32,000 nt of DNA from Megasphaera elsdenii DSM 20460 (GTDB lineage: Bacteria > Bacillota > Negativicutes > Veillonellales > Megasphaeraceae), in NCBI RefSeq assembly GCF_003010495.1, contig NZ_CP027570.1, positions 1,110,001 through 1,142,000 on the forward strand. The letters are read 5' to 3'. Both the position numbers and the translations under genes were made by a program. Shown in pieces: positions 840-31,664 of this stretch. The notes under the pieces were generated by a model. That model worked only from the letters and a program-made list of their open reading frames with translations, searched no databases and was not told the DNA's origin. Within the stretch, counting starts at the first letter, position 1. Each line of letters starts with the position of its first letter.

Positions 840-843
840 TTGC

Positions 844-1058
844 TAGCGGCTAGTGGCTGGTGGCGCCCCTACGACGTAAAAGGGACTACGCATGATGGTA
901 TAAGCCTTCATACAGTAGTCCCTTTTCTAGTAGCTGGAAAAAGCAACCTCTCAGTCAGCTTTGCTGACAGCTCTCCTATGAGGAGAGCCACGAACCGCGG
1001 CCAGCGAACTGCGGCCTGCAAGCGCCCACGGGGCGCCCATACGAGCCACGAGCCACTA
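844..1058. repeat. Intergenic repeat element E1, bounded by imperfect ~35-nt terminal inverted repeats; fills the whole convergent gap
   Basis: The left end is TAGCGGC TAGTGGC TGGTGGC GCCCC. The reverse complement of the right end is TAGTGGC TCGTGGC TCGTATG GGCGCCCC. Inside are a 12-bp hairpin (878-926) and the 45-nt double-hairpin module (945-989), which is also found at 15223-15267. Confidence 0.75.
878..926 (+). terminator. Hairpin inside E1, probable terminator of the znu-zur operon
   Basis: AAAAGGGACTAC (878-889) pairs with GTAGTCCCTTTT (915-926), giving a 12-bp stem with a 25-nt loop. The stem ends in T4. The outer stem resembles the lctP terminator at 18044-18075. Confidence 0.5.
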
Positions 1059-1059
1059 T

Positions 1060-1779: not shown

Positions 1780-1788
1780 TGCTATAAT
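1780..1788 (+). promoter_or_regulatory. Extended -10 promoter element (TGcTATAAT) for the arsR-family operon
   Basis: The sequence TGCTATAAT at 1780-1788 lies about 45 nt upstream of the TTG start and its AGGAG RBS. There is no good -35. Confidence 0.4.
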
Positions 1789-1831
1789 AAAACGATTAAG
1801 ATAGTGATACACAGCATTAGGAGCGATAGCA

Positions 1832-2134: not shown

Positions 2135-2148
2135 AGGGGGAGTCGTTT

Positions 2149-2646: not shown

Positions 2647-2667
2647 ACAGAGTTGGAGGTTTTATTC

Positions 2668-3474: not shown

Positions 3475-4322
3475 AATTGACACATTCTTGGAAGAAACTG
3501 TGCTGCCTGGCCGTGGCAGCGGCCTCCATCAGCGGTATGGCACTGGCTGCTTCGCCGCAGGCGACGTATGAAGAAGCAGCCCGCAATATGGCAGCCCATC
3601 CGCAGGGGTCCTATACGCTGAAATTAGGCCTCAAGATGCCGTTTATCGGTGAAGGCGCCATTGTCAACAATATCGACGTCCAGGAACGGCCTTTCGTCAT
3701 CCAGTCCCAGGCCAAGACGACGGGCTTTGCTGCGACGACCCTGCAAAAGGCGCCGGAAGGGAAGGCCTATGCCGTGCAGAATGGAAAGAAGCTCGACGTC
3801 TATTACAATCATGAAGGCGATGACAAGTCTTGGGAAAAGAAAAGCTATGACTTGAAAGACAGCAAGCCTCTGGCCGATTATCTGACAGCCAGTCATAATG
3901 TCCTGGCCGGCGTGAAAACCGTCACCGCTGCCGGCGGCAATGACTATAACGTCGTCTTCGATGCAGCGCACATCTACAGTCCGGCCGACCAGGCTTTATG
4001 GAAGAAAAATGGCATGACCGACGAACAGATCCGCGTTACCGCTAAAGTCCTCCAGGGCTTGCAGCAGTGCGGCGATTTGTCGACTGTCGTGACCATCGAT
4101 CCGGCGACGAAACGCATTTCCCGCATCTCTCTGCCCTTGACGGACCAGCTGCGCAGCCTGGCCCTGACCCTGGTCGATGAATATGGCCGCAGCGACGCCG
4201 ACAAGGCCGTAGCCCAGTCATTCATCAAGCTGAGCGAAGTCAGCCTGACCATCGATTGCACGGCCCTGCCTCAGGGTACGACGCTGACGGTACCGGAAAA
4301 AGTCATCAAAGCGGCTAAATAA
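3471..4322 (+). CDS. Exported protein of unknown function (signal peptide, no recognisable catalytic motif)
   Basis: MKLTHSWKKLCCLAVAAASISGMALAASPQ is a classic signal peptide with an ALA-A cleavage site. ATG 3471 overlaps the thiD TGA (ATGA). Codon usage looks coding throughout. Confidence 0.6.
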   Translation: MKLTHSWKKLCCLAVAAASISGMALAASPQATYEEAARNMAAHPQGSYTLKLGLKMPFIGEGAIVNNIDVQERPFVIQSQAKTTGFAATTLQKAPEGKAYAVQNGKKLDVYYNHEGDDKSWEKKSYDLKDSKPLADYLTASHNVLAGVKTVTAAGGNDYNVVFDAAHIYSPADQALWKKNGMTDEQIRVTAKVLQGLQQCGDLSTVVTIDPATKRISRISLPLTDQLRSLALTLVDEYGRSDADKAVAQSFIKLSEVSLTIDCTALPQGTTLTVPEKVIKAAK

Positions 4323-4527
4323 ATGTAAAATTTTTATGAAAAGTAAGACTTTTCACAAAAAAAGAGAATAGATTATTGACAGAGTCCCGGAAATAACGGA
4401 AAATATGAGAGAAGGAACAAATTTCCATTACTGTTCGTTATATTTTAATATCGGATAGACCTGTAGCCTGGTGCGCCGGGCTCCGGTTGGAACGGATACA
4501 ACTATATTTATTTTTAGGAGGTATATT

Positions 4528-6189
4528 TTGGCTAAAAAAGAAAAACTCATGGTAATTCCCTTAGGTGGTTTAGGTGAAATCGGCAAGAATATGACGGTCA
4601 TCCAGTACGGAAATGACATCATCGTCATCGACGCCGGCCTGGCCTTCCCGGATGACGACATGTTCGGTATCGACCTCGTCATCCCGGACATGAGTTACTT
4701 GATTGAAAACCGGGACAAAGTACGGGCCGTCGTCATCACGCACGGCCATGAAGACCATATCGGCGGTTTGTCCTACTTGCTCAATGAAGTAAATGTGCCC
4801 GTATACGCGACGAAACTCGTATGCGGCCTCATTGAAGGGAAACTGAAAGAAAACCACATTACGAACTATACACTGAACGAAGTGCATCACGGTGATGAAG
4901 TACAGATTGGCTGCATGAAAGTCGGCTTTATCCATACGAATCACTCTATCCCCGACGCCAGTGCCCTCTATTTCCGTACGCCTGTCGGAACCATCGTCCA
5001 TACAGGCGACTTCAAGATGGATCTGACCCCTGTCGATGGCCGGCAGATGGACATCCATAAATTTGCGGAATTAGGCCGCCGCGGCGTCCTGCTCCTCATG
5101 TCGGACAGCACCAATGCGGAACGGGCTGGCTATACCGAATCGGAAACGACCGTCGGTCATGCCTTCCGTAAAGCCTTCCGCGCTGCCAAAGGCCGTATTA
5201 TTTTGGCGACATTCGCCTCGAATATTTCCCGTATCCAACAGGCTATCAATACGGCTGTGCAGTTCAAACGCAAAGTCACTGTCCTCGGACGGAGCATGGT
5301 CAATAACGTCCAGATTGCTATCGAACTGGGCTATCTCGATGTCCCCGAAGGGGTCCTCATCGAACCGGATGAACTGAACCGTTATCCTGACGATCAGATC
5401 CTCATCCTGACGACGGGCAGCCAGGGCGAACCGATGGCCGGCTTGTCGCGCATGGCTTCTAACAATCACCGCAGTGTCAGCATCATGCCTGGCGATACGG
5501 TCATCATTTCGGCAACGCCGATCCCGGGCAATGAAACCGGCGTCGGCCGCACCATCGATAACCTCATGCGCCTCGGTGCCAACGTCATCGCCGGCCGGGA
5601 TAAGAAAATCCACGTATCGGGCCATGCCAGCCAGGAAGAATTGAAACTCATGCTGGAACTGATCAAGCCGAAGTATTTCATCCCTGTCCACGGCGAATAC
5701 CGTATGCTCAAGACCCACGGTGACCTGGCCGTCATGATGGGCGTCGCCAAGGACCACGTCCTCATCGGCGACAACGGCCAGATCTTTGAGTTCTCGAACC
5801 GTTCCGGCCATAAGACGGGCCATGTCAATGCCGGCCGCGTCTTCGTCGACGGCCTCGGCGTTGGCGATGTCGGCAACATCGTCATCCGTGACCGCCAGCA
5901 GCTGGCTATGGAAGGGGTCGTCATCGTCGTCATGACTCTGGCCAAAGGGACGAGCCATCCCCTGGCCGGGCCGGATATCGTTTCCCGCGGCTTCGTCTAT
6001 GTCCGCGATTCGGAAGAATTAATCCGCGAAGCGCATGACCGCGTCGCCGCTGTCCTCGAACGCTGCGAAGCCGGCAATATCCGCGAATGGGCTGTCATCA
6101 AGTCCCAGGTCCGCGATACGCTGAGCCGCTACTTGTATGAAAAGACACGGCGCCGTCCGATGATCTTGCCGATTATTATGGAAGTATAA
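4528..6189 (+). CDS. rnj: Ribonuclease J
   Basis: Motifs are VIPLGGLGEIGKN, the metallo-beta-lactamase motif HGHEDHIGG, a beta-CASP region and a C-terminal domain. TTG 4528 lies 6 nt after AGGAGG; ATG 4549 is an alternative start. Confidence 0.9.
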   Translation: MAKKEKLMVIPLGGLGEIGKNMTVIQYGNDIIVIDAGLAFPDDDMFGIDLVIPDMSYLIENRDKVRAVVITHGHEDHIGGLSYLLNEVNVPVYATKLVCGLIEGKLKENHITNYTLNEVHHGDEVQIGCMKVGFIHTNHSIPDASALYFRTPVGTIVHTGDFKMDLTPVDGRQMDIHKFAELGRRGVLLLMSDSTNAERAGYTESETTVGHAFRKAFRAAKGRIILATFASNISRIQQAINTAVQFKRKVTVLGRSMVNNVQIAIELGYLDVPEGVLIEPDELNRYPDDQILILTTGSQGEPMAGLSRMASNNHRSVSIMPGDTVIISATPIPGNETGVGRTIDNLMRLGANVIAGRDKKIHVSGHASQEELKLMLELIKPKYFIPVHGEYRMLKTHGDLAVMMGVAKDHVLIGDNGQIFEFSNRSGHKTGHVNAGRVFVDGLGVGDVGNIVIRDRQQLAMEGVVIVVMTLAKGTSHPLAGPDIVSRGFVYVRDSEELIREAHDRVAAVLERCEAGNIREWAVIKSQVRDTLSRYLYEKTRRRPMILPIIMEV

Positions 6190-9723: not shown

Positions 9724-11643
9724 ATGAAAGAATTATTGGACAAATTATTACAGCGCCATAAGTACCTCGAACCGACGGCGGAGGAAGAACTCCGCCGTCA
9801 GGTCAACGTGCTTTATGGCGCTTTTACTGGTCTTATAGGGTCTGAGAAGATGGTCCTTCGGGCCAGCAAATACTCGGCCCTGTCGTATATCCATTCTGAA
9901 GATCCACGCCAGCGCCTGGTCGGCCTGCAGCGCCTGATCTACGAAGACGTCTCGTATGATAAAGTGCCTGATGACGAGGAAGTCATCAACGTCCTCAACG
10001 AGCTGGAAATGGTCCTGGCTGAAATGCTGGCCCGCCAGGCCGTCGAAGAACGACTGGAAAAGAAAATCAGCCAGCGCATGGATGAAAAGCAGCAGGAATA
10101 CGTGCGGGAAATCAAGATGGAACTCATCAAGGAAGAACTGCACGATGTAGAAACGCCGCAGACCAAACGGAAACTCAAGGAACTGGACGACTTGGAAAAA
10201 GTCAGCCTGACGGAATCGGTCATGGAACGGGTCCGTCCCAAGCACCTCAGCGCCATCGTCGGCCAGGAACGGGCTGTCGAAGCCATGCAGAGCAAATTGG
10301 CATCGGTTTATCCGCAGCACCTGCTCCTTTACGGACCGCCGGGAGTCGGCAAGACGACGGCTGCCCGCATCGTCCTGGACGAAGCCAAGAAGCTGCCCTT
10401 CACGCCCTTTGGTCCCGATGCGCCCTTTGTCGAAACAGACGGCACGACGCTGCGCTGGGATTCGCGGGATATGACCAACCCCCTCATCGGTTCGGTCCAC
10501 GATCCGATTTACCAGGGCGCCCGCCGCGATCTGGCCGATACAGGTATACCGGAACCGAAACCGGGCCTGGTTACAGAAGCCCACGGCGGTATCCTGTTCA
10601 TCGATGAAATCGGAGAAATGGACCCGATGCTGCTCAACAAGCTGCTCAAGGTCATGGAAGACAAGCGGGTCCGTTTTGAATCGGCTTATTACGATGAAGA
10701 TGACCCGAATGTGCCGAAATATATCAAGAAACTCTTTGCCGAAGGCGCACCGGCCGATTTCATCCTCATCGGTGCGACGACGCGGGACCCGTCGGAAATC
10801 AATCCGGCCATCCGGTCGCGGTGTGCAGAAGTCTTTTTTGAACCCCTCATCCCGGCGGATATCGAACAGATTGTGACCAACGCCGCTGTCCAGTTAGGGG
10901 CAGAACTCGAAGAAGGCGTAGCCAGGATGATCAGTGAATTTACCATTGAAGGCCGGAAGGCTGTCAATATCCTGGCCGATACCTACGGCCTGGCTGTCTT
11001 TAAATCGGGGTCCAAGGACCATGTGCGCATCACCTGCGACCATGTCCGCCGCGTCGCCCAGATCAGCCGCCTCGTGCCTTACGTGACGGAGAAAGCCAGC
11101 GATACGCCGGTCGTCGGCAAGGTCTTCGGTCTCGGCGTCGCCGGTTACCTCGGCTCGGCCATCGAAATCGAAGCCGTGGCCTTCCCGGCACGGGCGCCGG
11201 GGAAGGGCTATTACCGGTTCAACGACACAGCCGGTTCCATGGCCAAGGATTCCATGTTCAACGCCGCCGCTGTCGTCCGCCGCATGACGGGGAAGGAACT
11301 GTCTGATTACGACGTCAACATCAACTTCATCGGCGGCGGCAATATCGACGGCCCGTCTGCAGGCTGTGCCATTACGACAGCCCTCATTTCGGCCATTACG
11401 GGGACGCCGGTCCGCCAGGATATGGCCCTGACCGGAGAAATTTCCATCCAGGGGCAGGTCAAACCCGTTGGCGGTGTCTTTGAAAAGGCTTATGGCGCCC
11501 GCCAGGCCGGCATGAAGGGCATCATCATCCCAGAGGAAAATGCCCACGACATCCCGGAACGCCATTTGGGTCTCCATATCCACTATGCCGTCACCATCGA
11601 CGATGTATTGAAATTGATGTTAGTCAAACAGGGGGAATCATAA
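9724..11643 (+). CDS. Lon-family ATP-dependent serine protease (LonB/LonC-like, no Lon N-domain)
   Basis: Walker A GPPGVGKTT, Walker B ILFIDEIGEM, and an S16 protease domain with DGPSAGCAITTALISAITG (catalytic Ser) and a downstream Lys. Confidence 0.8.
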   Translation: MKELLDKLLQRHKYLEPTAEEELRRQVNVLYGAFTGLIGSEKMVLRASKYSALSYIHSEDPRQRLVGLQRLIYEDVSYDKVPDDEEVINVLNELEMVLAEMLARQAVEERLEKKISQRMDEKQQEYVREIKMELIKEELHDVETPQTKRKLKELDDLEKVSLTESVMERVRPKHLSAIVGQERAVEAMQSKLASVYPQHLLLYGPPGVGKTTAARIVLDEAKKLPFTPFGPDAPFVETDGTTLRWDSRDMTNPLIGSVHDPIYQGARRDLADTGIPEPKPGLVTEAHGGILFIDEIGEMDPMLLNKLLKVMEDKRVRFESAYYDEDDPNVPKYIKKLFAEGAPADFILIGATTRDPSEINPAIRSRCAEVFFEPLIPADIEQIVTNAAVQLGAELEEGVARMISEFTIEGRKAVNILADTYGLAVFKSGSKDHVRITCDHVRRVAQISRLVPYVTEKASDTPVVGKVFGLGVAGYLGSAIEIEAVAFPARAPGKGYYRFNDTAGSMAKDSMFNAAAVVRRMTGKELSDYDVNINFIGGGNIDGPSAGCAITTALISAITGTPVRQDMALTGEISIQGQVKPVGGVFEKAYGARQAGMKGIIIPEENAHDIPERHLGLHIHYAVTIDDVLKLMLVKQGES

Positions 11644-13742: not shown

Positions 13743-13787
13743 ACAAGTGGGTAGCTGTTTTTTTTCCTAAAGGAGGAAATGATTACA

Positions 13788-14975
13788 ATGGCAAAAGAAC
13801 ATTATGAAAGAACAAAACCGCATGTCAATATCGGTACGATTGGTCACGTCGACCATGGCAAAACGACATTGACGGCTGCTATTACGAAAGTATTAGCAAA
13901 GAAGGGCTTTGCCAAGTTCGAAGATTACTCCGATATTGACAAGGCACCGGAAGAACGTGAACGTGGTATTACGATTAATACGGCGCACGTCGAATATGAA
14001 ACGGAAAAACGCCACTATGCACATGTTGACTGCCCGGGGCATGCTGACTATGTCAAGAACATGATCACCGGTGCTGCTCAGATGGATGGTGCTATCCTCG
14101 TTGTATCCGCAGCTGATGGCCCGATGCCGCAGACTCGTGAACACATCCTGCTGGCCCGTCAGGTCGGCGTACCGGCTATCGTCGTATACCTCAACAAAGC
14201 TGACCAGGTCGACGACCCGGAACTGATTGAACTCGTTGAAATGGAAGTCCGTGACCTCCTGACTGAATATGATTATCCTGGCGATGAAGTTCCTATCATC
14301 GTAGGTTCTGCGTTGAAAGCCCTCGAAGGCGATCCGGAAGCTGAAAAATCCATCCTCGACTTGATGGATGCCGTCGACAGCTACATTCCGACTCCGCAGC
14401 GTCCGACAGACCAGCCGTTCCTGATGCCTGTCGAAGACGTCTTCACTATTACAGGCCGCGGCACCGTTGCTACAGGTCGTGTCGAACGCGGTACGATTAA
14501 AGTCGGTGACCCTGTCGAAATCGTCGGCCTCGCCGATAAACCGAAAGATACGGTCGTTACGGGCGTTGAAATGTTCCGTAAGATCCTCGACCTCGCTGAA
14601 GCAGGCGACAACATCGGCGCCTTGCTCCGCGGCATCGACCGTAAAGATGTCGAACGCGGCCAGGTCCTGGCTAAACCGGGCACCATTCATCCGCACACGA
14701 AATTCAAGGCTCAGGTCTATGTCTTGACCAAAGATGAAGGCGGCCGTCATACGCCGTTCTTCAACGGCTATCGTCCGCAGTTCTACTTCCGTACCACTGA
14801 CGTAACGGGCGTCATCAACCTGCCGGAAGGCACGGAAATGTGCATGCCTGGCGATAACGTCAAGATGGATGTCGAACTCATCACACCGATTGCTATTGAA
14901 GCAGGCCTGCGCTTCGCTATCCGTGAAGGCGGCCGTACCGTAGGTGCCGGTGTCGTATCCGAAATCGAAGGCTAA
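13788..14975 (+). CDS. tuf: Elongation factor Tu
   Basis: The translation [33 protein letters not shown]... is unmistakably EF-Tu. ATG 13788 has proper spacing from AGGAGG; the track start at 13779 is too close to the SD. Confidence 0.97.
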
Positions 14976-15012: not shown

Positions 15013-15049
15013 AAAAAGAGGCTGTCGCATATGCGGCGGCCTCTTTTTT
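15013..15049 (+). terminator. Rho-independent terminator of tuf
   Basis: AGAGGC-TGT-CGCATATGCG-GCG-GCCTCT is followed by T6. Confidence 0.85.
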
Positions 15050-15108: not shown

Positions 15109-15135
15109 GTAGGGGTCGCCCAAAGGGCGACCCGC
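15109..15135 (+). repeat. GTAGGGG hairpin module (single copy)
   Basis: The sequence is GTAGGGGTCGCCCAAAGGGCGACCCGC. GGGTCGCCC/GGGCGACCC form a perfect 9-bp stem with an AAA loop. The same module is tandemly repeated at 30801-30932. Confidence 0.8.
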
Positions 15136-15180: not shown

Positions 15181-15267
15181 CCTCTCCTCATAGGAGAGGT
15201 GGCCCGAAGGGCCGGAGAGGTTAACCTCTCAGTCAGCTGCGCTGACAGCTCTCCTAGCAGGAGAGCC
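15181..15267 (+). repeat. Array of five back-to-back short hairpins; the last two (15223-15267) form the 45-nt module shared with 945-989
   Basis: The five hairpins are CCTCTCCT-cat-AGGAGAGG, GGCCC-gaa-GGGCC, GAGAGG-ttaa-CCTCTC, GTCAGC-tgc-GCTGAC and GCTCTCCT-agc-AGGAGAGC. The second copy at 945-989 differs at only a few positions. Confidence 0.8.
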
Positions 15268-15270
15268 GGG

Positions 15271-15297
15271 CCACTAGCCCCTAGCCACTAGCCACGA
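15271..15297 (-). repeat. Heptamer array (GCCACTA orientation = TAGTGGC on the minus strand)
   Basis: CTA occurs at 15274, 15281 and 15288 (period 7). This puts TAG in all three minus-strand frames. Confidence 0.8.
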
Positions 15298-15310
15298 ACC
15301 CGGGTATAAT
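15282..15310 (+). promoter_or_regulatory. Possible mscS promoter (TAGCCA-17-TATAAT)
   Basis: TATAAT at 15305-15310 lies 30 nt upstream of the ATG. The -35-like hexamer is contributed by the heptamer array. Confidence 0.35.
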
Positions 15311-16236: not shown

Positions 16237-16244
16237 GGAAAGAA

Positions 16245-16274
16245 AAGGGGCTGTCGCACGCGCGACAGCCCCTT
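16245..16274 (+). terminator. Hairpin after mscS (CTGTCGC-family), no T tract
   Basis: AAGGGGCTGTCGC-acgc-GCGACAGCCCCTT forms a 13-bp stem. Confidence 0.55.
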
Positions 16275-16518: not shown

Positions 16519-18039
16519 ATGGTATTTTTATTGGCACTGTCACCGATTCTGTGGCTCATCATCTCGCTGGGCTTCTTGAAGATGCAAAGCTTCAAGGCTT
16601 GTCCGATTGCACTCATCATTTCTTTTGCTGTCGCCCTGGCTTGGTATCATATGCCTGGCATGGATGCCGCTACGGCTGCTCTGGAAGGCGTGGCCCTGGC
16701 ATGCTGGCCTATCTTGCTGGTCATCATCGCCGCTATCTTTACGTATAATCTGACGCTGTACACCAAGAGCATGGACATCGTCAAGCACATGTTGACGACG
16801 GTCAGCAAGGACCGCCGCGTCCTGGCCCTGCTCATCGGCTGGGGCTTCGGTGCCTTCATGGAAGGCATGGCCGGCTTTGGTACGGCTATCGCTATCCCGG
16901 CCTCGATGTTGGTTGCCATGGGTTTCGACCCGATCAAGGCCATCCTGGTCTGCCTGGTCGCTAACTCCGTTCCTACGACGTATGGTTCCATTGGTATTCC
17001 GGCCAGCACTTTGGCTAACTTGACAGGTATCGATCCGGTACAGCTGTCGACATACATCAGCTTGCAGCTCTTGCCGCTCAATATCCTTTGCCCGTTCATC
17101 ATCGTCGCCATCGTCGGCGGATCGCTGAAAGCCCTCAAAGGCGTCTTCATGATCACCCTGCTTTCGGCCCTGGGTCTGGCTGTGCCGGAACTCATCGTTT
17201 CGTCTTTTGTCGGCCCGGAACTGGCTGTCATGGGTGCGTCCATTGTCATCATGGCCCTCATCGTCGTCTATTCCCATTTCCGTCCTGTCAATGATCCGGA
17301 ATATGCCATGGACATCAACCCGGCTCACGTACCGCTCCGCGGCGGTCTGCTGGCTTGCCTGCCCTTCATCTTGATCTTCGTCTTCTTACTGTTGACGTCG
17401 AAACTCGTTCCTTTCATCCATGCTCCGCTCATGGCTATTAAATCGTCGGTCCTCATCTATACCGGTCAGGGCGGCGTACCTTATACCTTCATCTGGGTCA
17501 ATACACCGGGTATCCTCATTCTCCTGGCTGCCTTCATCAGCGGCAAAGCCCAGTCGGCCCGCTTCAGTGAAATGTTCTTCGTCTTGCTGAACACCATCAA
17601 AGGCCTCCGCAATACGATCATCACCATCATTGCCGTCATCGCTACGGCGAAAGTCATGGGCTACAGCGGCATGACATCGGATATCGCCCGCACGGCTGTC
17701 GAAGCGACGGGTATGATGTATCCGGCCATTGCACCGCTCATCGGCTCTGTCGGCACGTTCATCACCGGTTCCGGTACGTCCAGTAACGTCCTCTTCGGCA
17801 ACCTCCAGACCGATGCTGCTGCCGCCATCAATGCCAATAAAGCCTGGCTGGCCGCTGCCAACTCGGCTGGTACCTGCGCGGGCAAGATGATTTCGCCGCA
17901 AAGTATCGCCATTGCCGTCGGGGCCATCTCCCTGACCGGCAAGGATAACGAAATCCTTCAGGCAATCATGAAAGTCTATGTACCATATATCATCCTCTTA
18001 GGGGCCATCGTCTACTTCGGACAGGTCCTGGTAGGGTAG
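16519..18039 (+). CDS. lctP: L-lactate permease (LctP family)
   Basis: A 506-aa polytopic protein. The EGMAGFGTAIAIPASMLVAMGF motif is typical of LctP/LldP. It sits beside the lactate-utilisation genes. Confidence 0.85.
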   Translation: MVFLLALSPILWLIISLGFLKMQSFKACPIALIISFAVALAWYHMPGMDAATAALEGVALACWPILLVIIAAIFTYNLTLYTKSMDIVKHMLTTVSKDRRVLALLIGWGFGAFMEGMAGFGTAIAIPASMLVAMGFDPIKAILVCLVANSVPTTYGSIGIPASTLANLTGIDPVQLSTYISLQLLPLNILCPFIIVAIVGGSLKALKGVFMITLLSALGLAVPELIVSSFVGPELAVMGASIVIMALIVVYSHFRPVNDPEYAMDINPAHVPLRGGLLACLPFILIFVFLLLTSKLVPFIHAPLMAIKSSVLIYTGQGGVPYTFIWVNTPGILILLAAFISGKAQSARFSEMFFVLLNTIKGLRNTIITIIAVIATAKVMGYSGMTSDIARTAVEATGMMYPAIAPLIGSVGTFITGSGTSSNVLFGNLQTDAAAAINANKAWLAAANSAGTCAGKMISPQSIAIAVGAISLTGKDNEILQAIMKVYVPYIILLGAIVYFGQVLVG

Positions 18040-18043
18040 GGAA

Positions 18044-18075
18044 AAAGGGACTGTCGCACATGCGACAGTCCCTTT
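18044..18075 (+). terminator. Terminator hairpin of lctP (CTGTCGC-family)
   Basis: AAAGGGACTGTCGCA-ca-TGCGACAGTCCCTTT forms a stem of about 14 bp, followed by TTTC. Confidence 0.65.
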
Positions 18076-18083
18076 CAAGTTGT

Positions 18084-18269
18084 TAGTGGCTAGCAGTTAG
18101 TGGTTAGTAGATGGTTTTAAATTTAAATGTTTTGCTGAAAGCTACAAACTTCATACTACAGACTATAAGGAGAAAGGGGCCTCACATAATAGCATGTGCT
18201 TTTGTGTGACAGCCCCTTTTCAGATGATTCAGGCGAGCCACGAACCACTAGCCACGAACCACTAGTCAC
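18084..18269. repeat. Intergenic element E3 flanked by inverted heptamer arrays
   Basis: The left array is TAGTGGC TAGCAGT TAGTGGT TAGTAG (18084-18110). The reverse complement of the right array (18235-18269) is TAGTGGT TCGTGGC TAGTGGT TCGTGGC. The interior is AT-rich and carries the hairpin AAAGGGGC...GCCCCTTT (18173-18220). Confidence 0.75.
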
Positions 18270-18720: not shown

Positions 18721-20274
18721 ATGAGAAAAGTAGAAATCATTACAGCTGAACAAGCAGCTCAGCTCGTAAAAGACAACGACACGATTACGTCTATCGGCTT
18801 TGTCAGCAGCGCCCATCCGGAAGCACTGACCAAAGCTTTGGAAAAACGGTTCCTGGACACGAACACCCCGCAGAACTTGACCTACATCTATGCAGGCTCT
18901 CAGGGCAAACGCGATGGCCGTGCCGCTGAACATCTGGCACACACAGGCCTTTTGAAACGCGCCATCATCGGTCACTGGCAGACTGTACCGGCTATCGGTA
19001 AACTGGCTGTCGAAAACAAGATTGAAGCTTACAACTTCTCGCAGGGCACGTTGGTCCACTGGTTCCGCGCCTTGGCAGGTCATAAGCTCGGCGTCTTCAC
19101 CGACATCGGTCTGGAAACTTTCCTCGATCCCCGTCAGCTCGGCGGCAAGCTCAATGACGTAACCAAAGAAGACCTCGTCAAACTGATCGAAGTCGATGGT
19201 CATGAACAGCTTTTCTACCCGACCTTCCCGGTCAACGTAGCTTTCCTCCGCGGTACGTATGCTGATGAATCCGGCAATATCACCATGGACGAAGAAATCG
19301 GGCCTTTCGAAAGCACTTCCGTAGCCCAGGCCGTTCACAACTGTGGCGGTAAAGTCGTCGTCCAGGTCAAAGACGTCGTCGCTCACGGCAGCCTCGACCC
19401 GCGCATGGTCAAGATCCCTGGCATCTATGTCGACTACGTCGTCGTAGCAGCTCCGGAAGACCATCAGCAGACGTATGACTGCGAATACGATCCGTCCCTC
19501 AGCGGTGAACATCGTGCTCCTGAAGGCGCTACCGATGCAGCTCTCCCCATGAGCGCTAAGAAAATCATCGGCCGCCGCGGCGCTTTGGAATTGACTGAAA
19601 ACGCTGTCGTCAACCTCGGCGTCGGTGCTCCGGAATACGTTGCTTCTGTTGCCGGTGAAGAAGGTATCGCCGATACCATTACCCTGACCGTCGAAGGTGG
19701 CGCCATCGGTGGCGTACCGCAGGGCGGTGCCCGCTTCGGTTCGTCCCGCAATGCCGATGCCATCATCGACCACACCTATCAGTTCGACTTCTACGATGGC
19801 GGCGGTCTGGACATCGCTTACCTCGGCCTGGCCCAGTGCGATGGCTCGGGCAACATCAACGTCAGCAAGTTCGGTACTAACGTTGCCGGCTGCGGCGGTT
19901 TCCCCAACATTTCCCAGCAGACACCGAATGTTTACTTCTGCGGCACCTTCACGGCTGGCGGCTTGAAAATCGCTGTCGAAGACGGCAAAGTCAAGATCCT
20001 CCAGGAAGGCAAAGCCAAGAAGTTCATCAAAGCTGTCGACCAGATCACTTTCAACGGTTCCTATGCAGCCCGCAACGGCAAACACGTTCTCTACATCACA
20101 GAACGCTGCGTATTTGAACTGACCAAAGAAGGCTTGAAACTCATCGAAGTCGCACCGGGCATCGATATTGAAAAAGATATCCTCGCTCACATGGACTTCA
20201 AGCCGATCATTGATAATCCGAAACTCATGGATGCCCGCCTCTTCCAGGACGGTCCCATGGGACTGAAAAAATAA
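18721..20274 (+). CDS. pct: Propionate CoA-transferase (lactate/propionate:acetyl-CoA CoA-transferase)
   Basis: A 517-aa family I CoA-transferase with the catalytic Glu region LTVEGGAIGGVP. From memory the sequence matches the Megasphaera Pct used in polylactate engineering. RBS is AGGAGGA. Confidence 0.92.
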   Translation: MRKVEIITAEQAAQLVKDNDTITSIGFVSSAHPEALTKALEKRFLDTNTPQNLTYIYAGSQGKRDGRAAEHLAHTGLLKRAIIGHWQTVPAIGKLAVENKIEAYNFSQGTLVHWFRALAGHKLGVFTDIGLETFLDPRQLGGKLNDVTKEDLVKLIEVDGHEQLFYPTFPVNVAFLRGTYADESGNITMDEEIGPFESTSVAQAVHNCGGKVVVQVKDVVAHGSLDPRMVKIPGIYVDYVVVAAPEDHQQTYDCEYDPSLSGEHRAPEGATDAALPMSAKKIIGRRGALELTENAVVNLGVGAPEYVASVAGEEGIADTITLTVEGGAIGGVPQGGARFGSSRNADAIIDHTYQFDFYDGGGLDIAYLGLAQCDGSGNINVSKFGTNVAGCGGFPNISQQTPNVYFCGTFTAGGLKIAVEDGKVKILQEGKAKKFIKAVDQITFNGSYAARNGKHVLYITERCVFELTKEGLKLIEVAPGIDIEKDILAHMDFKPIIDNPKLMDARLFQDGPMGLKK

Positions 20275-20300: not shown

Positions 20301-21215
20301 ATGAAACCAATGAGACTACATCACGTAGGCATTGTCCTGCCGACCTTAGAAAAAGCCCATGAATTCATGCAGAATAATGGACTTGAAATCGACTATGCCG
20401 GCTATGTCGATGCTTACCAGGCTGATCTCATTTTCACTAAGTTTGGTGAATTTGCCAGCCCGATTGAAATGATTATCCCGCACTCCGGTGTGCTTACCCA
20501 ATTCAATGGTGGCCGCGGCGGCATTGCCCACATCGCCTTCGAAGTGGACGATGTCGAAGCTGTCCGCCAGGAAATGGAAGCAGATTGTCCGGGATGCATG
20601 TTAGAAAAGAAAGCTGTCCAGGGTACGGACGACATTATCGTCAACTTCCGCCGCCCGACAACCAACCAGGGTATCCTCGTTGAATATGTTCAGACGACAG
20701 CACCTATCACCGGCCGCGGCGAAAATCCTTTCGTTAAGAATCTCGGCCCGGAAAAAGGGAAGCTCAACGAAACATGGCATCCCATGCGCCTGCACCATAT
20801 CGGCATCGTCTTGCCGACCTTGGAAAAGGCCCATGAATTCATCAAGACCAATGGTCTGGAAGTGGATTATTCCGGTTTCGTCGACGCCTACCATGCGGAT
20901 CTCATTTTCACTAAAAAAGGTGAAAACAGTACGCCTATCGAATTCATTATTCCCCGTGAAGGGGTCCTCAAAGATTTCAATCATGGCAGGGGAGGTATCG
21001 CTCATATCGCCTTTGAAGTGGATGATGTCGAAAAGGTACGTCAGATTATGGAAAGCCAGAAGCCTGGTTGCATGCTCGAAAAGAAAGCCGTCCGGGGAAC
21101 GGACGATATCATCGTCAACTTCCGCCGTCCCAGCACGGACGCCGGCATCCTCGTCGAATATGTCCAGACCGTAGCTCCCATCAATCGCAGCAATCCCAAC
21201 CCTTTTAATGATTGA
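20301..21215 (+). CDS. Tandem-duplicated VOC-superfamily protein, methylmalonyl-CoA-epimerase-like (two modules in one chain)
   Basis: Residues 3-137 and 161-295 are about 79% identical (106/135 by hand). Each module carries LHH(V/I)GIV, GGIAHIAFEVDD and GILVEYVQ, the metal-ligand positions of MCE-type enzymes. RBS AAGGAG. It lies inside the pct-lcd operon. Confidence 0.8.
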   Translation: MKPMRLHHVGIVLPTLEKAHEFMQNNGLEIDYAGYVDAYQADLIFTKFGEFASPIEMIIPHSGVLTQFNGGRGGIAHIAFEVDDVEAVRQEMEADCPGCMLEKKAVQGTDDIIVNFRRPTTNQGILVEYVQTTAPITGRGENPFVKNLGPEKGKLNETWHPMRLHHIGIVLPTLEKAHEFIKTNGLEVDYSGFVDAYHADLIFTKKGENSTPIEFIIPREGVLKDFNHGRGGIAHIAFEVDDVEKVRQIMESQKPGCMLEKKAVRGTDDIIVNFRRPSTDAGILVEYVQTVAPINRSNPNPFND

Positions 21216-24648: not shown

Positions 24649-25797
24649 ATGGAATTCAAACTTTCTGAATTACAGCAAGATATCGCAAATCTCGCAAAAG
24701 ATTTCGCAGAAAAAAAATTAGCTCCCACTGTCAAAGAACGTGACGAAAAAGAAGTTTTCGATCGTGCTATCCTTGACGAAATGGGTACTCTCGGCCTTCT
24801 CGGTATTCCCTGGGAAGAAGAAAACGGCGGCGTAGGCGCTGACTTCCTCAGCCTCGCAGTTGCTTGCGAAGAAGTAGCTAAAGTTGACCCCTCCATCGCT
24901 CTCAGCTTCGAAGTACACACCATGCTCTGCTCCTGGCCGATTTGGAAATTTGGCACAGCTGAACAGAAAGCTAAATTCCTCAAACCCCTCGCAGAAGGCA
25001 CAAAACTCGGCGCTTTCGGCCTTACTGAACCGAACGCTGGTACCGACGCTTTGAACGGTTCCACCGTTGCTACGAAAAACGAAGACGGCAGCTACACCTT
25101 GAACGGCTCCAAAGTCTTCAACACCAACGGCGGCGAAGCTGACGTTACCGTCGTATTCGCTTCCACGGACAAATCCAAAGGCGCTAAAGGCATGAGCGCT
25201 TTCATCCTCGAAAAAGGTATGGAAGGCTTCACCTATGGCAAAGAAGAAGTTAAAATGGGTATCCGCGCTTCCGTACAGCGTGAACTCGTATTCCAGAACG
25301 TAAAAGTTCCGGCTGAAAACCTCCTCGGCAAAGAAGGCGAAGGCTTCAAGATCGCTATGATGACCCTCGACGGCGGCCGTGTTGGCGTTGGCGCACAGGC
25401 TCTCGGCATTGCGGAAGGCGCTTACAATGCAGCTGTTCAGTATGCTAAAGAACGTACACAGTTCGGCAAACCGATCGCTAAATTCCAGGCTATCAGCTTC
25501 ATGCTCGCTGACATGAAACTCAAAATCGAAACGGCTCGCCTCGCTGTCTACAAAGCAGCTTGGAAAATGGCTCAGCCCGACGTTAAATCCTACTCCGTAG
25601 ACGCAGCTATCGCTAAGAAATACGCTTCTGACGTAGCTATGCAGGTCACCACCGATGCTGTCCAGGTATTCGGCGGCTATGGCTTCACTCGCGAATACCC
25701 GGTTGAACGCTACATGCGCGACGCTAAGATCACTCAGATCTACGAAGGTACCAACCAGGTACAGCAGATGGTTATCTCCGGCGCAATCCTCAGATAA
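24649..25797 (+). CDS. Short-chain acyl-CoA dehydrogenase (candidate acryloyl-CoA reductase / propionyl-CoA dehydrogenase component)
   Basis: A 382-aa protein with GAFGLTEPNAGTDA and C-terminal QIYEGTNQVQQMVISGAILR (catalytic Glu). It looks like a paralogue of butyryl-CoA dehydrogenase and lies downstream of lcdCAB. Confidence 0.88.
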   Translation: MEFKLSELQQDIANLAKDFAEKKLAPTVKERDEKEVFDRAILDEMGTLGLLGIPWEEENGGVGADFLSLAVACEEVAKVDPSIALSFEVHTMLCSWPIWKFGTAEQKAKFLKPLAEGTKLGAFGLTEPNAGTDALNGSTVATKNEDGSYTLNGSKVFNTNGGEADVTVVFASTDKSKGAKGMSAFILEKGMEGFTYGKEEVKMGIRASVQRELVFQNVKVPAENLLGKEGEGFKIAMMTLDGGRVGVGAQALGIAEGAYNAAVQYAKERTQFGKPIAKFQAISFMLADMKLKIETARLAVYKAAWKMAQPDVKSYSVDAAIAKKYASDVAMQVTTDAVQVFGGYGFTREYPVERYMRDAKITQIYEGTNQVQQMVISGAILR

Positions 25798-25880: not shown

Positions 25881-25918
25881 AAAGAGAGGCTGTCGCCGAT
25901 GCGACAGCCTCTCTTTTT
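25881..25918. terminator. Bidirectional terminator between acd and the panE-like gene (CTGTCGC-family)
   Basis: AAAGAGAGGCTGTCGC-cgat-GCGACAGCCTCTCTTT is followed by TT. The A tract upstream and the T tract downstream serve both strands. Confidence 0.8.
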
Positions 25919-26827: not shown

Positions 26828-26939
26828 AGTATCAACCTCTTTCGATGAACAACGTACATCTTATTATCGCACAGGGCTGGATAAAGGGCAAATAGGGAAG
26901 GGTATGCCCAAAAAGTATATAAAAACAACATATGAACAC

Positions 26940-26968
26940 TTGAACATATTTAACTTTAATGGTATCAT
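26940..26968 (+). promoter_or_regulatory. Probable ATPase promoter (TTGAAC-17-TGgTATCAT), overlapped by an imperfect inverted repeat at 26930-26949
   Basis: -35 at 26940-26945, an exact 17-nt spacer, and -10 TATCAT at 26963-26968 with TG at -15/-14. In ATATGAACAC|TTGAACATAT, 7 of 10 positions are symmetric, and it contains the ATATGAACA half-site seen in SmtB/CzrA-type operators. Confidence 0.5.
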
Positions 26969-28968: not shown

Positions 28969-29060
28969 AGCCTTTCTGGCAAATAGGTAATAAAAACGTT
29001 TAACCAAATTAATAATATAACGTTTAACGGAATAAAATTTAAAAATATTAATAAAAAGCC

Positions 29061-30784: not shown

Positions 30785-30804
30785 TAGTGGCTAGGGGCTA
30801 GTAG
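30785..30804 (+). repeat. Heptamer array TAGTGGC TAGGGGC TAGTAG immediately after the MFS stop codon
   Basis: The TGA stop is at 30781. TAG then occurs at 30785, 30792 and 30799 (period 7), so all three frames are closed within 14 nt of the stop. Confidence 0.8.
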
Positions 30805-30932
30805 GGGCCGTCCCAAAGGGCGGCCCGCAGACCGCAGGCCGCGGATACATTCGTAGGGGCCGTCCCAAAGGGCGGCCCGCAGACCGCAGGCCACGGATAC
30901 ATTCGTAGGGGCCGTCCCAAAGGGCGGCCCGC
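30801..30932 (+). repeat. 52-nt tandem repeat, 2.5 copies, of the GTAGGGG hairpin module
   Basis: Copies start at 30801, 30853 and 30905. Copies 1 and 2 differ at one base (G 30841 vs A 30893). The unit is GTAGGGGCCGTCCCAAAGGGCGGCCCGCAGACCGCAGGCCGCGGATACATTC. Confidence 0.95.
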
Positions 30933-30941
30933 TTTTTTTTT
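30905..30941 (+). terminator. Rho-independent terminator of the MFS gene, formed by the last repeat copy
   Basis: GGGCCGTCCC-aaa-GGGCGGCCC is followed by GC and T9 (30933-30941). Confidence 0.85.
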
Positions 30942-31552: not shown

Positions 31553-31664
31553 GTAGGGGTACCCACGTGGGGCGTCCGCCAAATTTCCAAAATGTCCCGA
31601 AACGTTCCCGAAACGTAGGGGCGCCCGCGTGGGGCGCCCGCCAAATTTCCAAAATGTTCCCGAA
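31553..31664 (+). repeat. 62-nt tandem repeat (about 1.8 copies) of a GTAGGGG-type module between the two hsp20 genes
   Basis: Copies start at 31553 and 31615. The unit is GTAGGGG(T/C)(A/G)CCC(A/G)CGTGGGGCG(T/C)CCGCCAAATTTCCAAAATGT(T)CCCGAA. Copy 1 has an extra internal GTTCCCGAAAC duplication. Confidence 0.9.

What the first reader, a model, noticed from the sequence alone, without database searches (positions are those of the whole stretch)
18084..18269. Period-7 TAG-containing heptamer arrays in inverted orientation flank intergenic elements (three-frame stop traps or MITE-like ends)
Seen in the sequence:
- Short arrays of the heptamer TAGTGGC (variants TAGCGGC, TAGCAGT, TAGGGGC, TCGTGGC) occur at six places: 844-864, 1038-1058 (reverse complement), 15271-15297 (reverse complement), 18084-18110, 18235-18269 (reverse complement) and 30785-30804.
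- Because 7 is not a multiple of 3, successive TAGs fall in successive frames.
- TAGs lie at 18084/18091/18098 and at 30785/30792/30799. At 837/844/851 the first stop is the zur TAA. On the minus strand they lie at 15274/15281/15288. In each case all three frames are closed.
- In two loci (844-1058 and 18084-18269) a plus-oriented array and a minus-oriented array bracket a ~190-215-nt element. The stops face outward-in from both sides.
- The right-hand arrays are more degenerate. TAG alternates with TCG, and at 18235-18269 only two frames are closed.
- Three arrays begin within a few nt of a gene's own stop codon.

Inference, two readings:
- They are terminal inverted repeats of a non-autonomous mobile element family.
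- They are selected translation insulators that stop ribosomes entering structured terminator regions.

I do not recognise this as a described repeat family.
Basis: partly seen in the sequence, partly recalled or inferred. Interest (0 to 1): 0.66.

Follow-up and report, generated by a model that had tools for sequence, protein, structure and literature searches.

The report
Heptamer repeats in Megasphaera intergenic modules
The TAG-containing 7-base arrays are real, but they are copy-number-variable simple repeats, T(A/C)GTGG(C/T), that form modules of the mosaic, hairpin-rich spacers behind Megasphaera genes; their stop codons are incidental, not a selected ribosome trap.

Summary
The six arrays exist as described: 18 pattern matches against 1.3 expected. 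The window is Megasphaera elsdenii.

**What the arrays are**
- They are heptameric simple-sequence repeats.
- Across strains every length difference in them is a multiple of 7 or 14.
- In 80 further Megasphaera arrays (351 units) the consensus is T[A 53%/C 45%]GTGG[C/T]. The A that makes TAG is the least conserved position, and TCGTGGC is the commonest unit.

**Position and orientation**
- Arrays do sit just behind stop codons with the G-rich strand in sense (26 against 7).
- TAG:TCG ratios are the same at gene ends as elsewhere.
- In 93 unrelated heptamer arrays from many phyla the bias follows G>C (25 against 10), not stop content.

**The array at 18084-18110**
- It is the 5' arm of a hairpin inside a dispersed ~185-nt element: hairpin T1, heptamer-armed hairpin H2, hairpin T2.
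- This element occupies at least 26 distinct sites and is present or absent between strains.

**Verdict**
- The stop-trap reading is not supported.
- The MITE reading is partly supported, but the arrays are not its termini.
- Heptameric repeats with this placement are already described in cyanobacteria, Xanthomonas and Beggiatoaceae.
- This is a new member of a known, functionally unresolved kind.

The parts
844..864 (+). Heptamer array TAGCGGC TAGTGGC TGGTGGC, 4 nt after the zur/Fur-family stop (837-839)
   Evidence: It has 3-6 units among 10 strains, always in steps of 7.
878..926 (.). Bidirectional terminator-like hairpin between the convergent zur and nitroreductase genes
   Evidence: Read from the sequence. 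It is kept in all strains and forms in the fold.
947..989 (+). Double-hairpin 'module b', CCTCTCAGTCAGCTnnGCTGACAGCTCTCCTAnnAGGAGAGCC
   Evidence: A second copy lies at 15225-15267. It also occurs in Megasphaera sp. L115 and in many metagenome copies.
987..1016 (-). 14-nt-period array (GCCACGAACCGCG / GCCAGCGAACTGCG)
   Evidence: It has 1 or 2 units among strains, a 14-nt step.
1022..1037 (.). Short GC-rich hairpin GCGCCCACGGGGCGCC, REP-like
   Evidence: On the minus strand it directly follows the heptamer array.
1041..1058 (-). Heptamer array (minus strand TAGTGGC TCGTGGC TCG), 1 nt after the nitroreductase stop (1060-1062)
   Evidence: It has 1 to about 6 units among strains. It pairs with 844-864 in the fold.
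15109..15135 (+). GTAG-headed REP-like hairpin GTAGGGGTCGCCCAAAGGGCGACCCGC
15225..15267 (+). Second copy of module b, directly followed by the heptamer array
15270..15297 (-). Heptamer array (minus strand TCGTGGC TAGTGGC TAGGGGC TAGTGGC), 42 nt upstream of the MscS-type channel gene. Its proximal unit supplies a -35-like TAGCCA 17 nt before TATAAT.
   Evidence: It has 4 to about 12 units among 10 strains. The promoter-like match at 15282-15310 scores 10/12.
18042..18075 (+). Hairpin T1, the left end of the ~185-nt element and the terminator-like hairpin of the lactate permease gene
   Evidence: (family D4). In one search the T1 helices are 93-96% paired, with compensatory changes.
18079..18114 (+). 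5' arm of hairpin H2. It holds the reported array, 18084-18110: TAGTGGC TAGCAGT TAGTGGT TAGTAG.
   Evidence: The same 20-mer occurs at 40 or more flank clusters in metagenome contigs.
18115..18134 (+). AT-rich centre (loop) of the element, TTTTAAATTTAAAT
   Evidence: The AAATTTAAA core is conserved in 22 aligned copies.
18135..18170 (+). 3' arm of H2: heptamers CTACAAA CTTCATA CTACAGA CTATAAG. On the minus strand these also read as TAG-N4 units.
   Evidence: In this window copy H2 is degraded (-19.4 kcal/mol, z -0.5).
18173..18220 (+). Hairpin T2, the right end of the element
   Evidence: In one search the T2 helices are 94% paired, with compensatory changes.
18233..18269 (-). Outer heptamer array with a 14-nt super-period (minus strand TAGTGGT TCGTGGC x2). 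It pairs with 18084-18110 in the fold of this copy.
   Evidence: It is kept in lctP-pct alleles A and B and absent from allele C.
30785..30804 (+). Short array TAGTGGC TAGGGGC TAG, 1 nt after the MFS transporter stop, running into the GTAGGGGC head of a REP-like hairpin
   Evidence: It is invariant in 10 strains.
30801..30940 (+). 2.5 copies of a 52-nt unit holding a REP-like hairpin. The last hairpin plus a T-run looks like the terminator of the MFS gene.
   Evidence: It has 1-3 hairpin copies among strains.

Best explanation
**What the arrays are.** They are heptameric simple-sequence repeats with consensus T(A/C)GTGG(C/T). They are one of several heptamer families that, together with REP-like hairpins and terminator-like hairpins, build the mosaic spacers between Megasphaera genes.

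**Shown**
- They grow and shrink in whole units between strains, as replication slippage does.
- They lie only between genes.
- The 5' end of their G-rich strand tends to abut a gene border, most often 1-15 nt after a stop codon.
- Neighbouring arrays in opposite orientation always face each other and can pair.
- The array at 18084-18110 is a fixed part of a dispersed ~185-nt element made of T1, a hairpin H2 whose two arms are heptamer arrays, and T2.
- Subfamilies of this element carry different heptamers but keep the arms complementary. In the main subfamily the pairing needs G-U pairs, so it works on one strand only.

**Inferred**
- These cassettes act at the level of transcripts. They would serve as stacked, bidirectional terminator and 3'-end structures that separate neighbouring transcription units.
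- The heptamer arrays would supply long, imperfect, easily resized stems.
- The TAG triplets are a by-product of the unit sequence. They are not selected ribosome stops.
For: **Slippage-type variation**
- The array at 15270 has 4 to about 12 units among strains.
- Every indel in the zur-nitroreductase spacer is a multiple of 7 or 14 in 10 strains.

**Unit consensus and no constraint on the stop**
- One search covers 351 units: A 53% and C 45% at position 2, and TCGTGGC is the commonest unit.
- One search gives TAG:TCG of 71:35 at gene ends against 189:85 elsewhere, p = 0.71.

**Period 7 dominates**
- In Megasphaera sequence there are 300 rows at period 7, against 52 at period 6 and 16 at period 8.
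- In array-bearing genomes of many phyla there are 127 non-seed heptamer arrays, against 25 hexamer and 20 octamer arrays.

**Orientation at gene ends**
- Counts are 26 against 7 (p = 0.0013) and 34 against 9.
- The bias follows G>C (25 against 10), not stop content.
- Neighbouring inverted pairs are convergent in 28 cases and divergent in 0.

**Element family**
- The metagenome scan gave 116 loci in about 47 upstream-flank clusters.
- nhmmer gave 367 hits and 26 distinct full-length sites. The T1 side abuts an ORF stop at 12 sites and the T2 side at 4.
- Three subfamilies have different arms.
- For the T1/H2/T2 structure, 85% of cells are paired, against 35-49% when slid. In H2, 10 of 26 pairs changed on both sides.
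- The consensus H2 folds at -29.7 kcal/mol (z -3.5) on the T1-to-T2 strand and at -13 (z 0.1) on the other.
- Plus and minus arrays pair in both window loci (z -7.0 and -7.5).

**Published parallel**
- G-rich heptamers in Xanthomonas and Nostoc have variable copy number and lie within 50 bp downstream of stops on the coding strand, or upstream of ORFs on the non-coding strand. Their function is unresolved (PMC4692102).
Against: - No expression data are available. Whether T1 leaks, whether H2 and T2 are transcribed, and whether the arrays matter for termination or stability is inference.
- The window's own H2 is weak (-19.4 kcal/mol, z -0.5). T1 of this copy has a poor T-tail and was not called by the terminator scan.
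- Slippage alone does not explain why period 7 is favoured, why T, G3, G5 and G6 are nearly invariant, why the same TAGTGG(C/T) unit recurs in many phyla, or why divergent pairs are absent.
- The Megasphaera sample was drawn by a pattern and is redundant. It is not a whole-genome census.
- The structure tested was derived from one of the aligned copies.
Confidence: 0.65

Rival explanations
1. Selected three-frame stop traps. The arrays would be kept behind genes because successive TAGs close all reading frames. They would release ribosomes that read through or frameshift before those ribosomes enter structured terminators.
For: - Arrays do start 1-15 nt after stop codons in sense orientation far more often than in antisense.
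- Four of the six window arrays close all three frames.
Against: - The A of TAG is the least conserved position (53%), and TCGTGGC is the commonest unit.
- The TAG:TCG ratio is the same at gene ends and elsewhere.
- Among other heptamer families next to stops, three-frame closure is not enriched (13/35 against 68/151). In paired comparisons the antisense strand has more stops more often (11 against 4).
- Stop-free heptamers (GGGAATC, GGGGAYT) show the same placement in Xanthomonas and Nostoc (PMC4692102).
- Arrays of up to 12-25 units are far longer than needed.
- Two window arrays are not behind any gene.
Confidence: 0.04
2. Terminal inverted repeats of a classical MITE. The plus and minus arrays would be the ends recognised by a transposase, and the 125-215 nt between them the body of the element.
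For: - Inverted arrays bracket hairpin-rich segments at 844-1058 and 18084-18269, and in the hsp20-cupin spacer of other strains.
- A dispersed non-coding element family exists and is present or absent behind tuf.
Against: - In the dispersed element the arrays are internal. The ends are the hairpins T1 and T2.
- The zur-nitroreductase segment is present in all 10 strains, and only repeat numbers vary.
- For convergent genes each array is explained by its own gene end.
- Array length varies, unlike transposase-binding ends.
- No target-site duplication is seen. The 'filled' and 'empty' alleles differ by replacement of the whole block from the stop codon to the end of the terminator.
- No matching transposase was seen. 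The one IS605-type TnpB insertion found has unrelated ends.
Confidence: 0.08
3. Heptad binding sites for a protein, on DNA or RNA. The 7-nt spacing and the nearly invariant T.GTGG core would reflect cooperative binding of one subunit per heptad. Known parallels are the omega repressor of pSM19035 on WATCACW heptads and HutP on (UAG-N4)3.
For: - Four of seven positions are 91-99% conserved across 351 units, while two positions are dimorphic.
- In the element the two arms keep a 7-nt register in three subfamilies.
- Period 7 dominates over all other periods.
- Such heptad-binding proteins exist (own knowledge, not tested here).
Against: - Many unrelated heptamer sequences coexist in the same genomes. 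That would need many proteins, or none.
- Copy number varies freely between strains.
- HutP-type recognition needs UAG, which is not conserved.
- The unit does not match WATCACW.
- No candidate gene was identified.
- The G-U-dependent strand asymmetry of H2 points to nucleic-acid pairing rather than duplex-DNA recognition.
Confidence: 0.1
4. A strand-specific transcription signal. The arrays read G-rich in the gene's own transcript. They read C-rich for polymerases entering the gene border from outside. They might therefore load Rho onto antisense or read-through transcripts, or favour R-loops at gene ends.
For: - The orientation bias follows G>C in sense across unrelated heptamers (25 against 10).
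- The bias is 26 against 7 in Megasphaera.
- Convergent pairs number 28 and divergent pairs 0.
- The array at 15270-15297 reads C-rich for read-through from tuf, just before the next gene's promoter.
- The same rule is reported for G-rich heptamers elsewhere (PMC4692102).
Against: - This is purely correlative.
- With TCG units the antisense strand (GCCACGA) is only mildly G-poor.
- Some families break the rule, for example AATTCTT in L070.
- No data on Rho or R-loops in Megasphaera are available.
- The 7-nt period is not explained.
Confidence: 0.12

Closest known systems
Short tandemly repeated repetitive (STRR) heptamers of heterocystous cyanobacteria, and G-rich GGGAATC / GGGGA(C/T)T heptamer repeats of Xanthomonas and Nostoc (PMC4692102)
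   Same: - Tandem 7-nt units, intergenic, many loci per genome.
- Copy number differs between close relatives.
- The G-rich strand lies within about 50 bp after stops on the coding strand, or just upstream of ORFs on the non-coding strand.
- Inverted pairs occur.
- Function is unresolved.
   Different: - The unit is T(A/C)GTGG(C/T), without G3-4 runs, so no quadruplex is expected.
- The modal array has 3 units rather than 4.
- The host is a Negativicute gut and rumen anaerobe.
- Arrays are built into larger hairpin cassettes.
TAACTGA direct repeats of Beggiatoaceae, cyanobacteria and Bacteroidetes (PMC4679880)
   Same: Heptamer direct repeats that contain stop triplets. They are abundant in intergenic DNA and patchily distributed across phyla. 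A post-transcriptional role has been suggested.
   Different: Those lie mostly a few nt upstream of start codons. The Megasphaera arrays lie mostly just after stop codons or next to hairpins.
Mosaic or modular intergenic repeats: BIME/REP and ERIC of enterobacteria, BOX of pneumococcus (own knowledge), and a Porphyromonas gingivalis MITE that holds a minisatellite (PMC4596501, title and abstract only)
   Same: - Non-coding, dispersed, hairpin-forming elements in transcribed spacers.
- Built of interchangeable modules, some in variable number.
- GTAG-headed REP-like hairpins co-occur with the arrays here.
   Different: - No sequence similarity was tested or expected.
- The variable module here is a 7-nt repeat that forms the arms of a hairpin.
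- A REP-associated transposase was not looked for.
HutP (UAG-N4)x3 RNA sites and omega-protein WATCACW heptad operators (own knowledge)
   Same: A 7-nt register. TAG-N4 spacing is exactly the HutP site format. Heptads can occur in direct and inverted arrays.
   Different: - UAG is not conserved (A 53%).
- The unit differs from WATCACW.
- There are probably hundreds of sites rather than one operon or plasmid locus (extrapolated, not counted).
- No binding protein was identified.

Membership tests
Heptameric intergenic simple-sequence repeats (STRR-like) | Head-to-tail units of 7 nt | tested here: met
   TRF calls period 7 or 14 at all six sites. It finds 300 period-7 rows in Megasphaera sequence.
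Heptameric intergenic simple-sequence repeats (STRR-like) | Copy number varies between close relatives in whole units | tested here: met
   all indels are multiples of 7 or 14. The array at 30785 is invariant.
Heptameric intergenic simple-sequence repeats (STRR-like) | Many loci per genome, in non-coding DNA | tested here: met
   There are 6 arrays in 32 kb, all intergenic, and 80-100 distinct arrays in the metagenome sample. A whole-genome count was not possible.
Heptameric intergenic simple-sequence repeats (STRR-like) | G-rich strand close to the ORF on its 5' side (after stops in sense, before starts in antisense) | tested here: met
   Five of the six window arrays fit. Counts are 26 against 7 and 25 against 10 for other heptamers.
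G-quadruplex-forming heptamer repeats (PMC4692102) | Four or more runs of at least 3 G, and a preference for four units | tested here: not met
   The main units TAGTGGC and TCGTGGC have only GG. TAGGGGY is a minority (34 of 351). The modal array has 3 units.
Three-frame stop trap (translation insulator) | Stop triplet conserved at least as well as the rest of the unit | tested here: not met
   Position 2 is A 53% and C 45%, the least conserved position.
Three-frame stop trap (translation insulator) | Stop-bearing units or orientations favoured next to gene ends | tested here: not met
   TAG:TCG is 71:35 against 189:85 (p = 0.71). Three-frame closure is 13/35 against 68/151.
Three-frame stop trap (translation insulator) | Effect on read-through or frameshifted ribosomes | not testable with these tools
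   Needs ribosome profiling or reporter assays.
MITE | Short, non-coding, many dispersed copies | tested here: met
   This holds for the ~185-nt T1-H2-T2 element: 26 distinct full-length sites and 367 nhmmer hits. It does not hold for the arrays as such.
MITE | Terminal inverted repeats that define the ends | tested here: inconclusive
   The ends AAAAGGGCTTGTCGCACG and CGTGCGACAGCCCTTTT are inverted. They are halves of two hairpins of one family that also occurs alone (68 T1-only hits). The heptamer arrays are internal.
MITE | Target-site duplication and precise empty sites | tested here: not met
   Filled and empty alleles behind tuf, and the three alleles behind lctP, differ by replacement of the whole block from the stop codon onward. 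No duplication is seen.
MITE | Cognate autonomous element or transposase | not tested
   Only an unrelated IS605-type TnpB insertion was seen.
REP/BIME | GTAG-headed imperfect palindrome of about 20-40 nt | tested here: not met
   The arrays are tandem repeats, not palindromes. Such hairpins do occur beside them (15109, 30801, 31553, 31615).
REP/BIME | REP-associated tyrosine transposase in the genome | not tested
HutP-type antiterminator site | Three UAG triplets spaced by 4 nt, with UAG required | tested here: not met
   The spacing fits, but A is only 53%. Sites lie behind many unrelated genes.

The most novel reading that the evidence does not exclude
G-rich heptamer arrays placed at gene borders are a cross-phylum, strand-specific signal read by universal machinery. 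One possibility is that they load Rho onto, or form R-loops with, transcripts that enter a gene border from outside. If so, the long-noted excess of heptameric repeats in bacterial genomes would reflect selection rather than polymerase slippage alone. In Megasphaera the same units would have been recruited as arms of a mobile terminator cassette.
Probability: 0.1. Interest if true: 0.75.

Novelty: new member of a known kind. Interest (0 to 1): 0.4.

Why it matters
- It documents that Megasphaera elsdenii, a gut and rumen lactate user of probiotic interest, has spacers built from variable heptamer repeats and an apparently undescribed ~185-nt three-hairpin element.
- These repeats are ready-made strain-typing markers, and likely causes of assembly breaks.
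- One array overlaps a promoter-like site, so repeat-number changes could tune expression.
- The strand and position rules reported for three genomes (PMC4692102) also hold for many heptamer families in many phyla. The unexplained excess of heptameric repeats in bacteria becomes easier to test.

Tried and rejected
- **Rfam at gathering thresholds.** It found only five tRNAs in the window.
- **Literature.** Searches for the literal repeat strings and for Megasphaera repeat elements found nothing.
- **Link to GTAG-headed REP hairpins.** These co-occur with arrays in Megasphaera and a few other taxa. Over all 120 loci, GTAG hairpins were no commoner than control heads (161 against 151). I dropped this as a general explanation.
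- **Link to IS200/IS605 elements.** The one TnpB insertion found in a strain has ends unrelated to T1/T2.
- **TCG-unit arrays as a control.** They showed no gene-end bias (6 against 5). They come mostly from high-GC genomes where ORF calling is noisy, so I replaced this control with the tests.
- **RNAalifold.** It recovered only T1 and T2, because deletions disturb the arm register. I tested H2 with a stated structure instead.
- **zur protein look-up.** The look-up found a single contig, probably because genes are called from a later start. I used a neighbouring gene instead.
- **E. coli Chi octamer.** GCTGGTGG at 857-864 is treated as coincidence.
Full report
**1. Source and setting**

The window carries a lactate permease gene (16519-18039) and a propionate CoA-transferase-like gene (18721-20274). 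Genes with lactoyl-CoA dehydratase-type domains follow, then an acryloyl-CoA reductase-like gene (24649-25797). It also holds tuf (13779-14975) and five tRNA genes, at about 53% G+C.

Exact-protein look-ups place it in Megasphaera elsdenii. A 7.5-kb stretch is identical to two gut metagenome contigs. Other stretches are nearly identical to HE576794.1 and related to CP027569.1.

**2.

- A two-unit pattern with up to two mismatches matches 18 times, against 1.3 expected.
- Tandem Repeats Finder reports period 7 or 14 at each site.
- Frame closure is as described for 18084, 30785, 15271 and 844 (the last counting the zur TAA). 18235-18269 closes two frames. 1038-1058 has a single TAG.
- Three arrays start 1-4 nt after a stop codon in sense.
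- In both bracketed loci the plus and minus arrays are predicted to pair and close a multi-hairpin domain: -88 kcal/mol with z -7.0, and -107 kcal/mol with z -7.5.

**3. The arrays are variable-number simple repeats**

I compared ten strains at each of four spacers.

- *tuf to the MscS-type gene.* The array at 15270-15297 ranges from 4 to about 12 units, while the flanks are identical.
- *zur to nitroreductase.* Every indel is a multiple of 7 or 14. The left array has 3-6 units, a GTAGCTG unit occurs 1-2 times, the 14-nt array has 1-2 units, and the right array has 1 to about 6 units. The hairpin modules between them are present in all strains.
- *MFS to hsp20.* The short array at 30785 is invariant. 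The adjacent 52-nt REP-like unit has 1-3 copies.

This is the behaviour of slippage-prone simple repeats, not of transposon ends.

**4. The stop codons are not what is conserved**

A metagenome scan with the 20-mer of the 18084 array returned 116 loci (874 kb), mostly Megasphaera-like.

- In this sample, leaving out arrays that hold the search pattern, I found 80 distinct arrays of the family with 351 units.
- Their consensus is T, A 53% / C 45%, G, T 88%, G 91%, G 96%, C 62% / T 38%.
- TCGTGGC (94) is commoner than TAGTGGC (74). The base that makes TAG is therefore the least conserved of the seven.
- Arrays are nonetheless placed at gene ends. Of 100 distinct arrays, 26 have a 100-aa or longer ORF whose own stop lies within 25 nt upstream in the G-rich sense, against 7 from the other side (p = 0.0013).
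- TAG:TCG is 71:35 in those arrays and 189:85 in the rest (p = 0.71).

**5. The same rule in other phyla, and what it follows**

It found TAGTGG(C/T), TAGGGG(C/T) and, in high-GC taxa, TCGGGG(C/T) arrays in several groups:

- cyanobacteria, Planctomycetes, Acidobacteriota and Chloroflexota;
- Bacteroidota, Proteobacteria and Firmicutes, including three Megasphaera and two selenomonads.

Of 67 TAG-type arrays, 34 lie at or within 20 nt after an ORF stop in sense, against 9 in antisense.

In these same loci period 7 dominates all repeat periods even without the searched type. There are 127 arrays of very diverse heptamers, against 25 hexamer, 20 octamer and 38 nonamer arrays.

For 93 of these other arrays I asked what marks the orientation that sits just behind a stop:

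- G>C in 25 against G<C in 10.
- Three frames closed in 13 of 35, against 68 of 151 for the other orientations.
- In paired comparisons the sense strand had more stops in 4 cases, the antisense strand in 11, and they were equal in 16.

The bias therefore follows strand composition, not stop codons. This matches the published description of G-rich heptamers in Xanthomonas and Nostoc (PMC4692102):

- variable copy number;
- position within 50 bp after stops on the coding strand, or before ORFs on the non-coding strand;
- function unknown.

Five of the six window arrays fit that rule. This includes 15270-15297, which lies 42 nt upstream of the next gene on the non-coding strand. There it supplies a -35-like TAGCCA 17 nt from a TATAAT.

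**6. The array at 18084-18110 is part of a dispersed element**

- *Alleles behind lctP.* The lctP-pct spacer has three alleles in otherwise identical flanks.
  - One is the window's form.
  - One has the same layout but AGTTTGA / TCAAACN heptamers.
  - One has REP-like hairpins and no heptamers.
- *Presence or absence behind tuf.* Two strains carry, between the tuf stop and its terminator, an extra ~215-nt block. This block is the reverse complement of the window's 18040-18230.
- *Copies elsewhere.* The metagenome loci show the same ~185-nt unit behind many different genes. Its parts, in order:
  - T1 (AAAAAGGGCTTGTCGCACGTGCGACAAGCCCTTTT);
  - AAGTTGT;
  - TAGTGGC TAGCAGT TAGTGGT TAGCGGA;
  - a TTTAAATTTAAA centre;
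  - CTGCAAA CTACAAA CTCTGTG CTACAAA CTATAAAG;
  - T2.
- *Census.* A profile search finds 367 full or partial copies in 1.2 Mb and 26 distinct full-length sites. The T1 side abuts an ORF stop at 12 sites and the T2 side at 4. Many copies are cut after the centre and joined to other modules.
- *Subfamilies.* Aligned copies fall into three subfamilies. They share T1, centre and T2 but have different heptamer arms.
- *Structure.* For the three-hairpin structure, 85% of cells are paired, against 35-49% when partners are slid. In the arm hairpin H2, 10 of 26 pairs changed on both sides. T1 and T2 also show compensatory changes.
- *Strand asymmetry.* The consensus H2 of the main subfamily folds at -29.7 kcal/mol (z -3.5) on the T1-to-T2 strand but at -13 (z 0.1) on the other. 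Its pairing relies on G-U pairs, which points to a single-stranded, probably RNA, form.
- *The window copy.* Its own H2 is weak. In this copy the 5' arm pairs better with the outer array at 18233-18269.

**7. How it most likely works**

*Shown:*
- slippage-type variation;
- exclusive intergenic location;
- G-rich-sense placement at ORF borders;
- inward-facing pairing of neighbouring arrays (28 convergent, 0 divergent);
- membership of one array in a dispersed three-hairpin element.

*Inferred:*
- These cassettes work in transcripts as stacked terminator and 3'-end structures. T1 and T2 both have A-runs before and T-runs after the stem, so the unit would read as a terminator from either side. 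The heptamer arrays would give long, imperfect stems of adjustable length.
- The replacement alleles that start exactly at the stop codon are best read as old spacer polymorphisms moved between strains by homologous recombination in the conserved genes, not as transposition. No duplication marks the junctions.

I hold the descriptive part with high confidence and the functional part with moderate to low confidence.

**8. What remains unexplained**

- Why period 7 is favoured. The published idea is polymerase geometry, as cited in PMC4692102.
- Why T.GTGG is nearly invariant while two positions are dimorphic.
- Why the same unit recurs across phyla.
- Why divergent pairs are absent.

A heptad-binding protein, or a strand-specific transcription signal (Rho loading or R-loops), would each explain part of this. 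Neither could be tested here.

**9. Comparison and novelty**

Heptameric intergenic repeats have been described in several groups:
- STRR in cyanobacteria;
- GGGNATC in Xanthomonas and Nostoc;
- TAACTGA in Beggiatoaceae and others (PMC4679880);
- heptamers near Nostoc promoters (bioRxiv 10.1101/2022.06.06.494920).

Modular hairpin elements are also well known (BIME/REP, ERIC, BOX). I found no description of either for Megasphaera.

The finding is therefore a new member of a known kind. The specific claim that made it exciting, natural three-frame stop traps, fails its own test.

Noticed in passing
window 15109-15135, 30801-30932, 31553-31579, 31615-31641: GTAG-headed REP-like hairpins (GTAGGGG...CCCGC). 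The 52-nt unit at 30801 has 1-3 copies among strains, and its last hairpin plus a T-run looks like the MFS gene's terminator. The heptamer variant TAGGGGC equals the head of these hairpins.
   Followed up: partly
window 15013-15049, 16243-16274, 18042-18075, 25883-25914: One hairpin family (GGCTGTCGCA-loop-GCGACAGCC, flanked by A- and T-runs) stands behind four different genes. It is also the end module (T1/T2) of the ~185-nt element. The terminators themselves therefore look like dispersed repeats.
   Followed up: partly
window 947-989 and 15225-15267; L115 about 430-480: A conserved double-hairpin module, CCTCTCAGTCAGCTnnGCTGACAGCTCTCCTAnnAGGAGAGCC. It sits next to a heptamer array in all three cases and also occurs in another Megasphaera species.
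   Followed up: no
window 15282-15310: The proximal unit of the variable array gives a -35-like TAGCCA 17 nt before a TATAAT upstream of the MscS-type channel gene. Repeat-number changes occur further upstream and leave this intact.
   Followed up: partly
L146 4468-5694 (equivalent to window about 26828-26958): One strain has an IS605-type OrfB/TnpB gene inserted between the ApbA-like gene and the P-type ATPase gene. It is absent from the window and the other strains. Its ends are unrelated to the hairpins studied here.
   Followed up: partly
Megasphaera-like loci L152-L267 and window: Neighbouring T(A/C)GTGG(C/T) arrays within 400 nt are convergent (plus then minus) in 28 cases, divergent in 0 and tandem in 26. 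I have no mechanistic explanation for this asymmetry.
   Followed up: partly
L171 about 240-310; L070 6279-6346; L123 about 2300-2400: In unrelated bacteria an inverted pair of TAGTGG(C/T)-type arrays starts at or just after a stop codon. It forms a long perfect hairpin, followed by a T-run in L171. This looks like an intrinsic terminator whose stem is made of heptamer arrays.
   Followed up: no
L070 (Chloroflexia contig) 692-5713: At least five spacers each hold AATTCTT x4-5 followed about 20 nt later by the inverted AATTAAG x4-5. Inverted heptamer-array hairpins are thus a recurring architecture outside Megasphaera, here with the pyrimidine-rich arm first.
   Followed up: no
window 857-864: The E. 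coli Chi octamer GCTGGTGG occurs inside a TGGTGGC variant unit. The normal unit junction GCTAGTGG is one mismatch away. I treated this as coincidence.
   Followed up: no
window 28980-29036: An AT-rich tandem repeat of 24 nt (2.3 copies) lies upstream of the MFS transporter gene.
   Followed up: no
window 20307-20450 and 20781-20924: A 144-nt internal duplication (77% identity, 474 nt apart) lies inside the 304-aa glyoxalase-fold gene downstream of the CoA-transferase gene. It is probably a two-domain duplication.
   Followed up: no
L143, L144, L147, L149 about 11120-11250: Some strains carry a tRNA-like sequence on the minus strand, and a different allele of the spacer, between the second hsp20 gene and the cupin gene. 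Other strains lack it.
   Followed up: no
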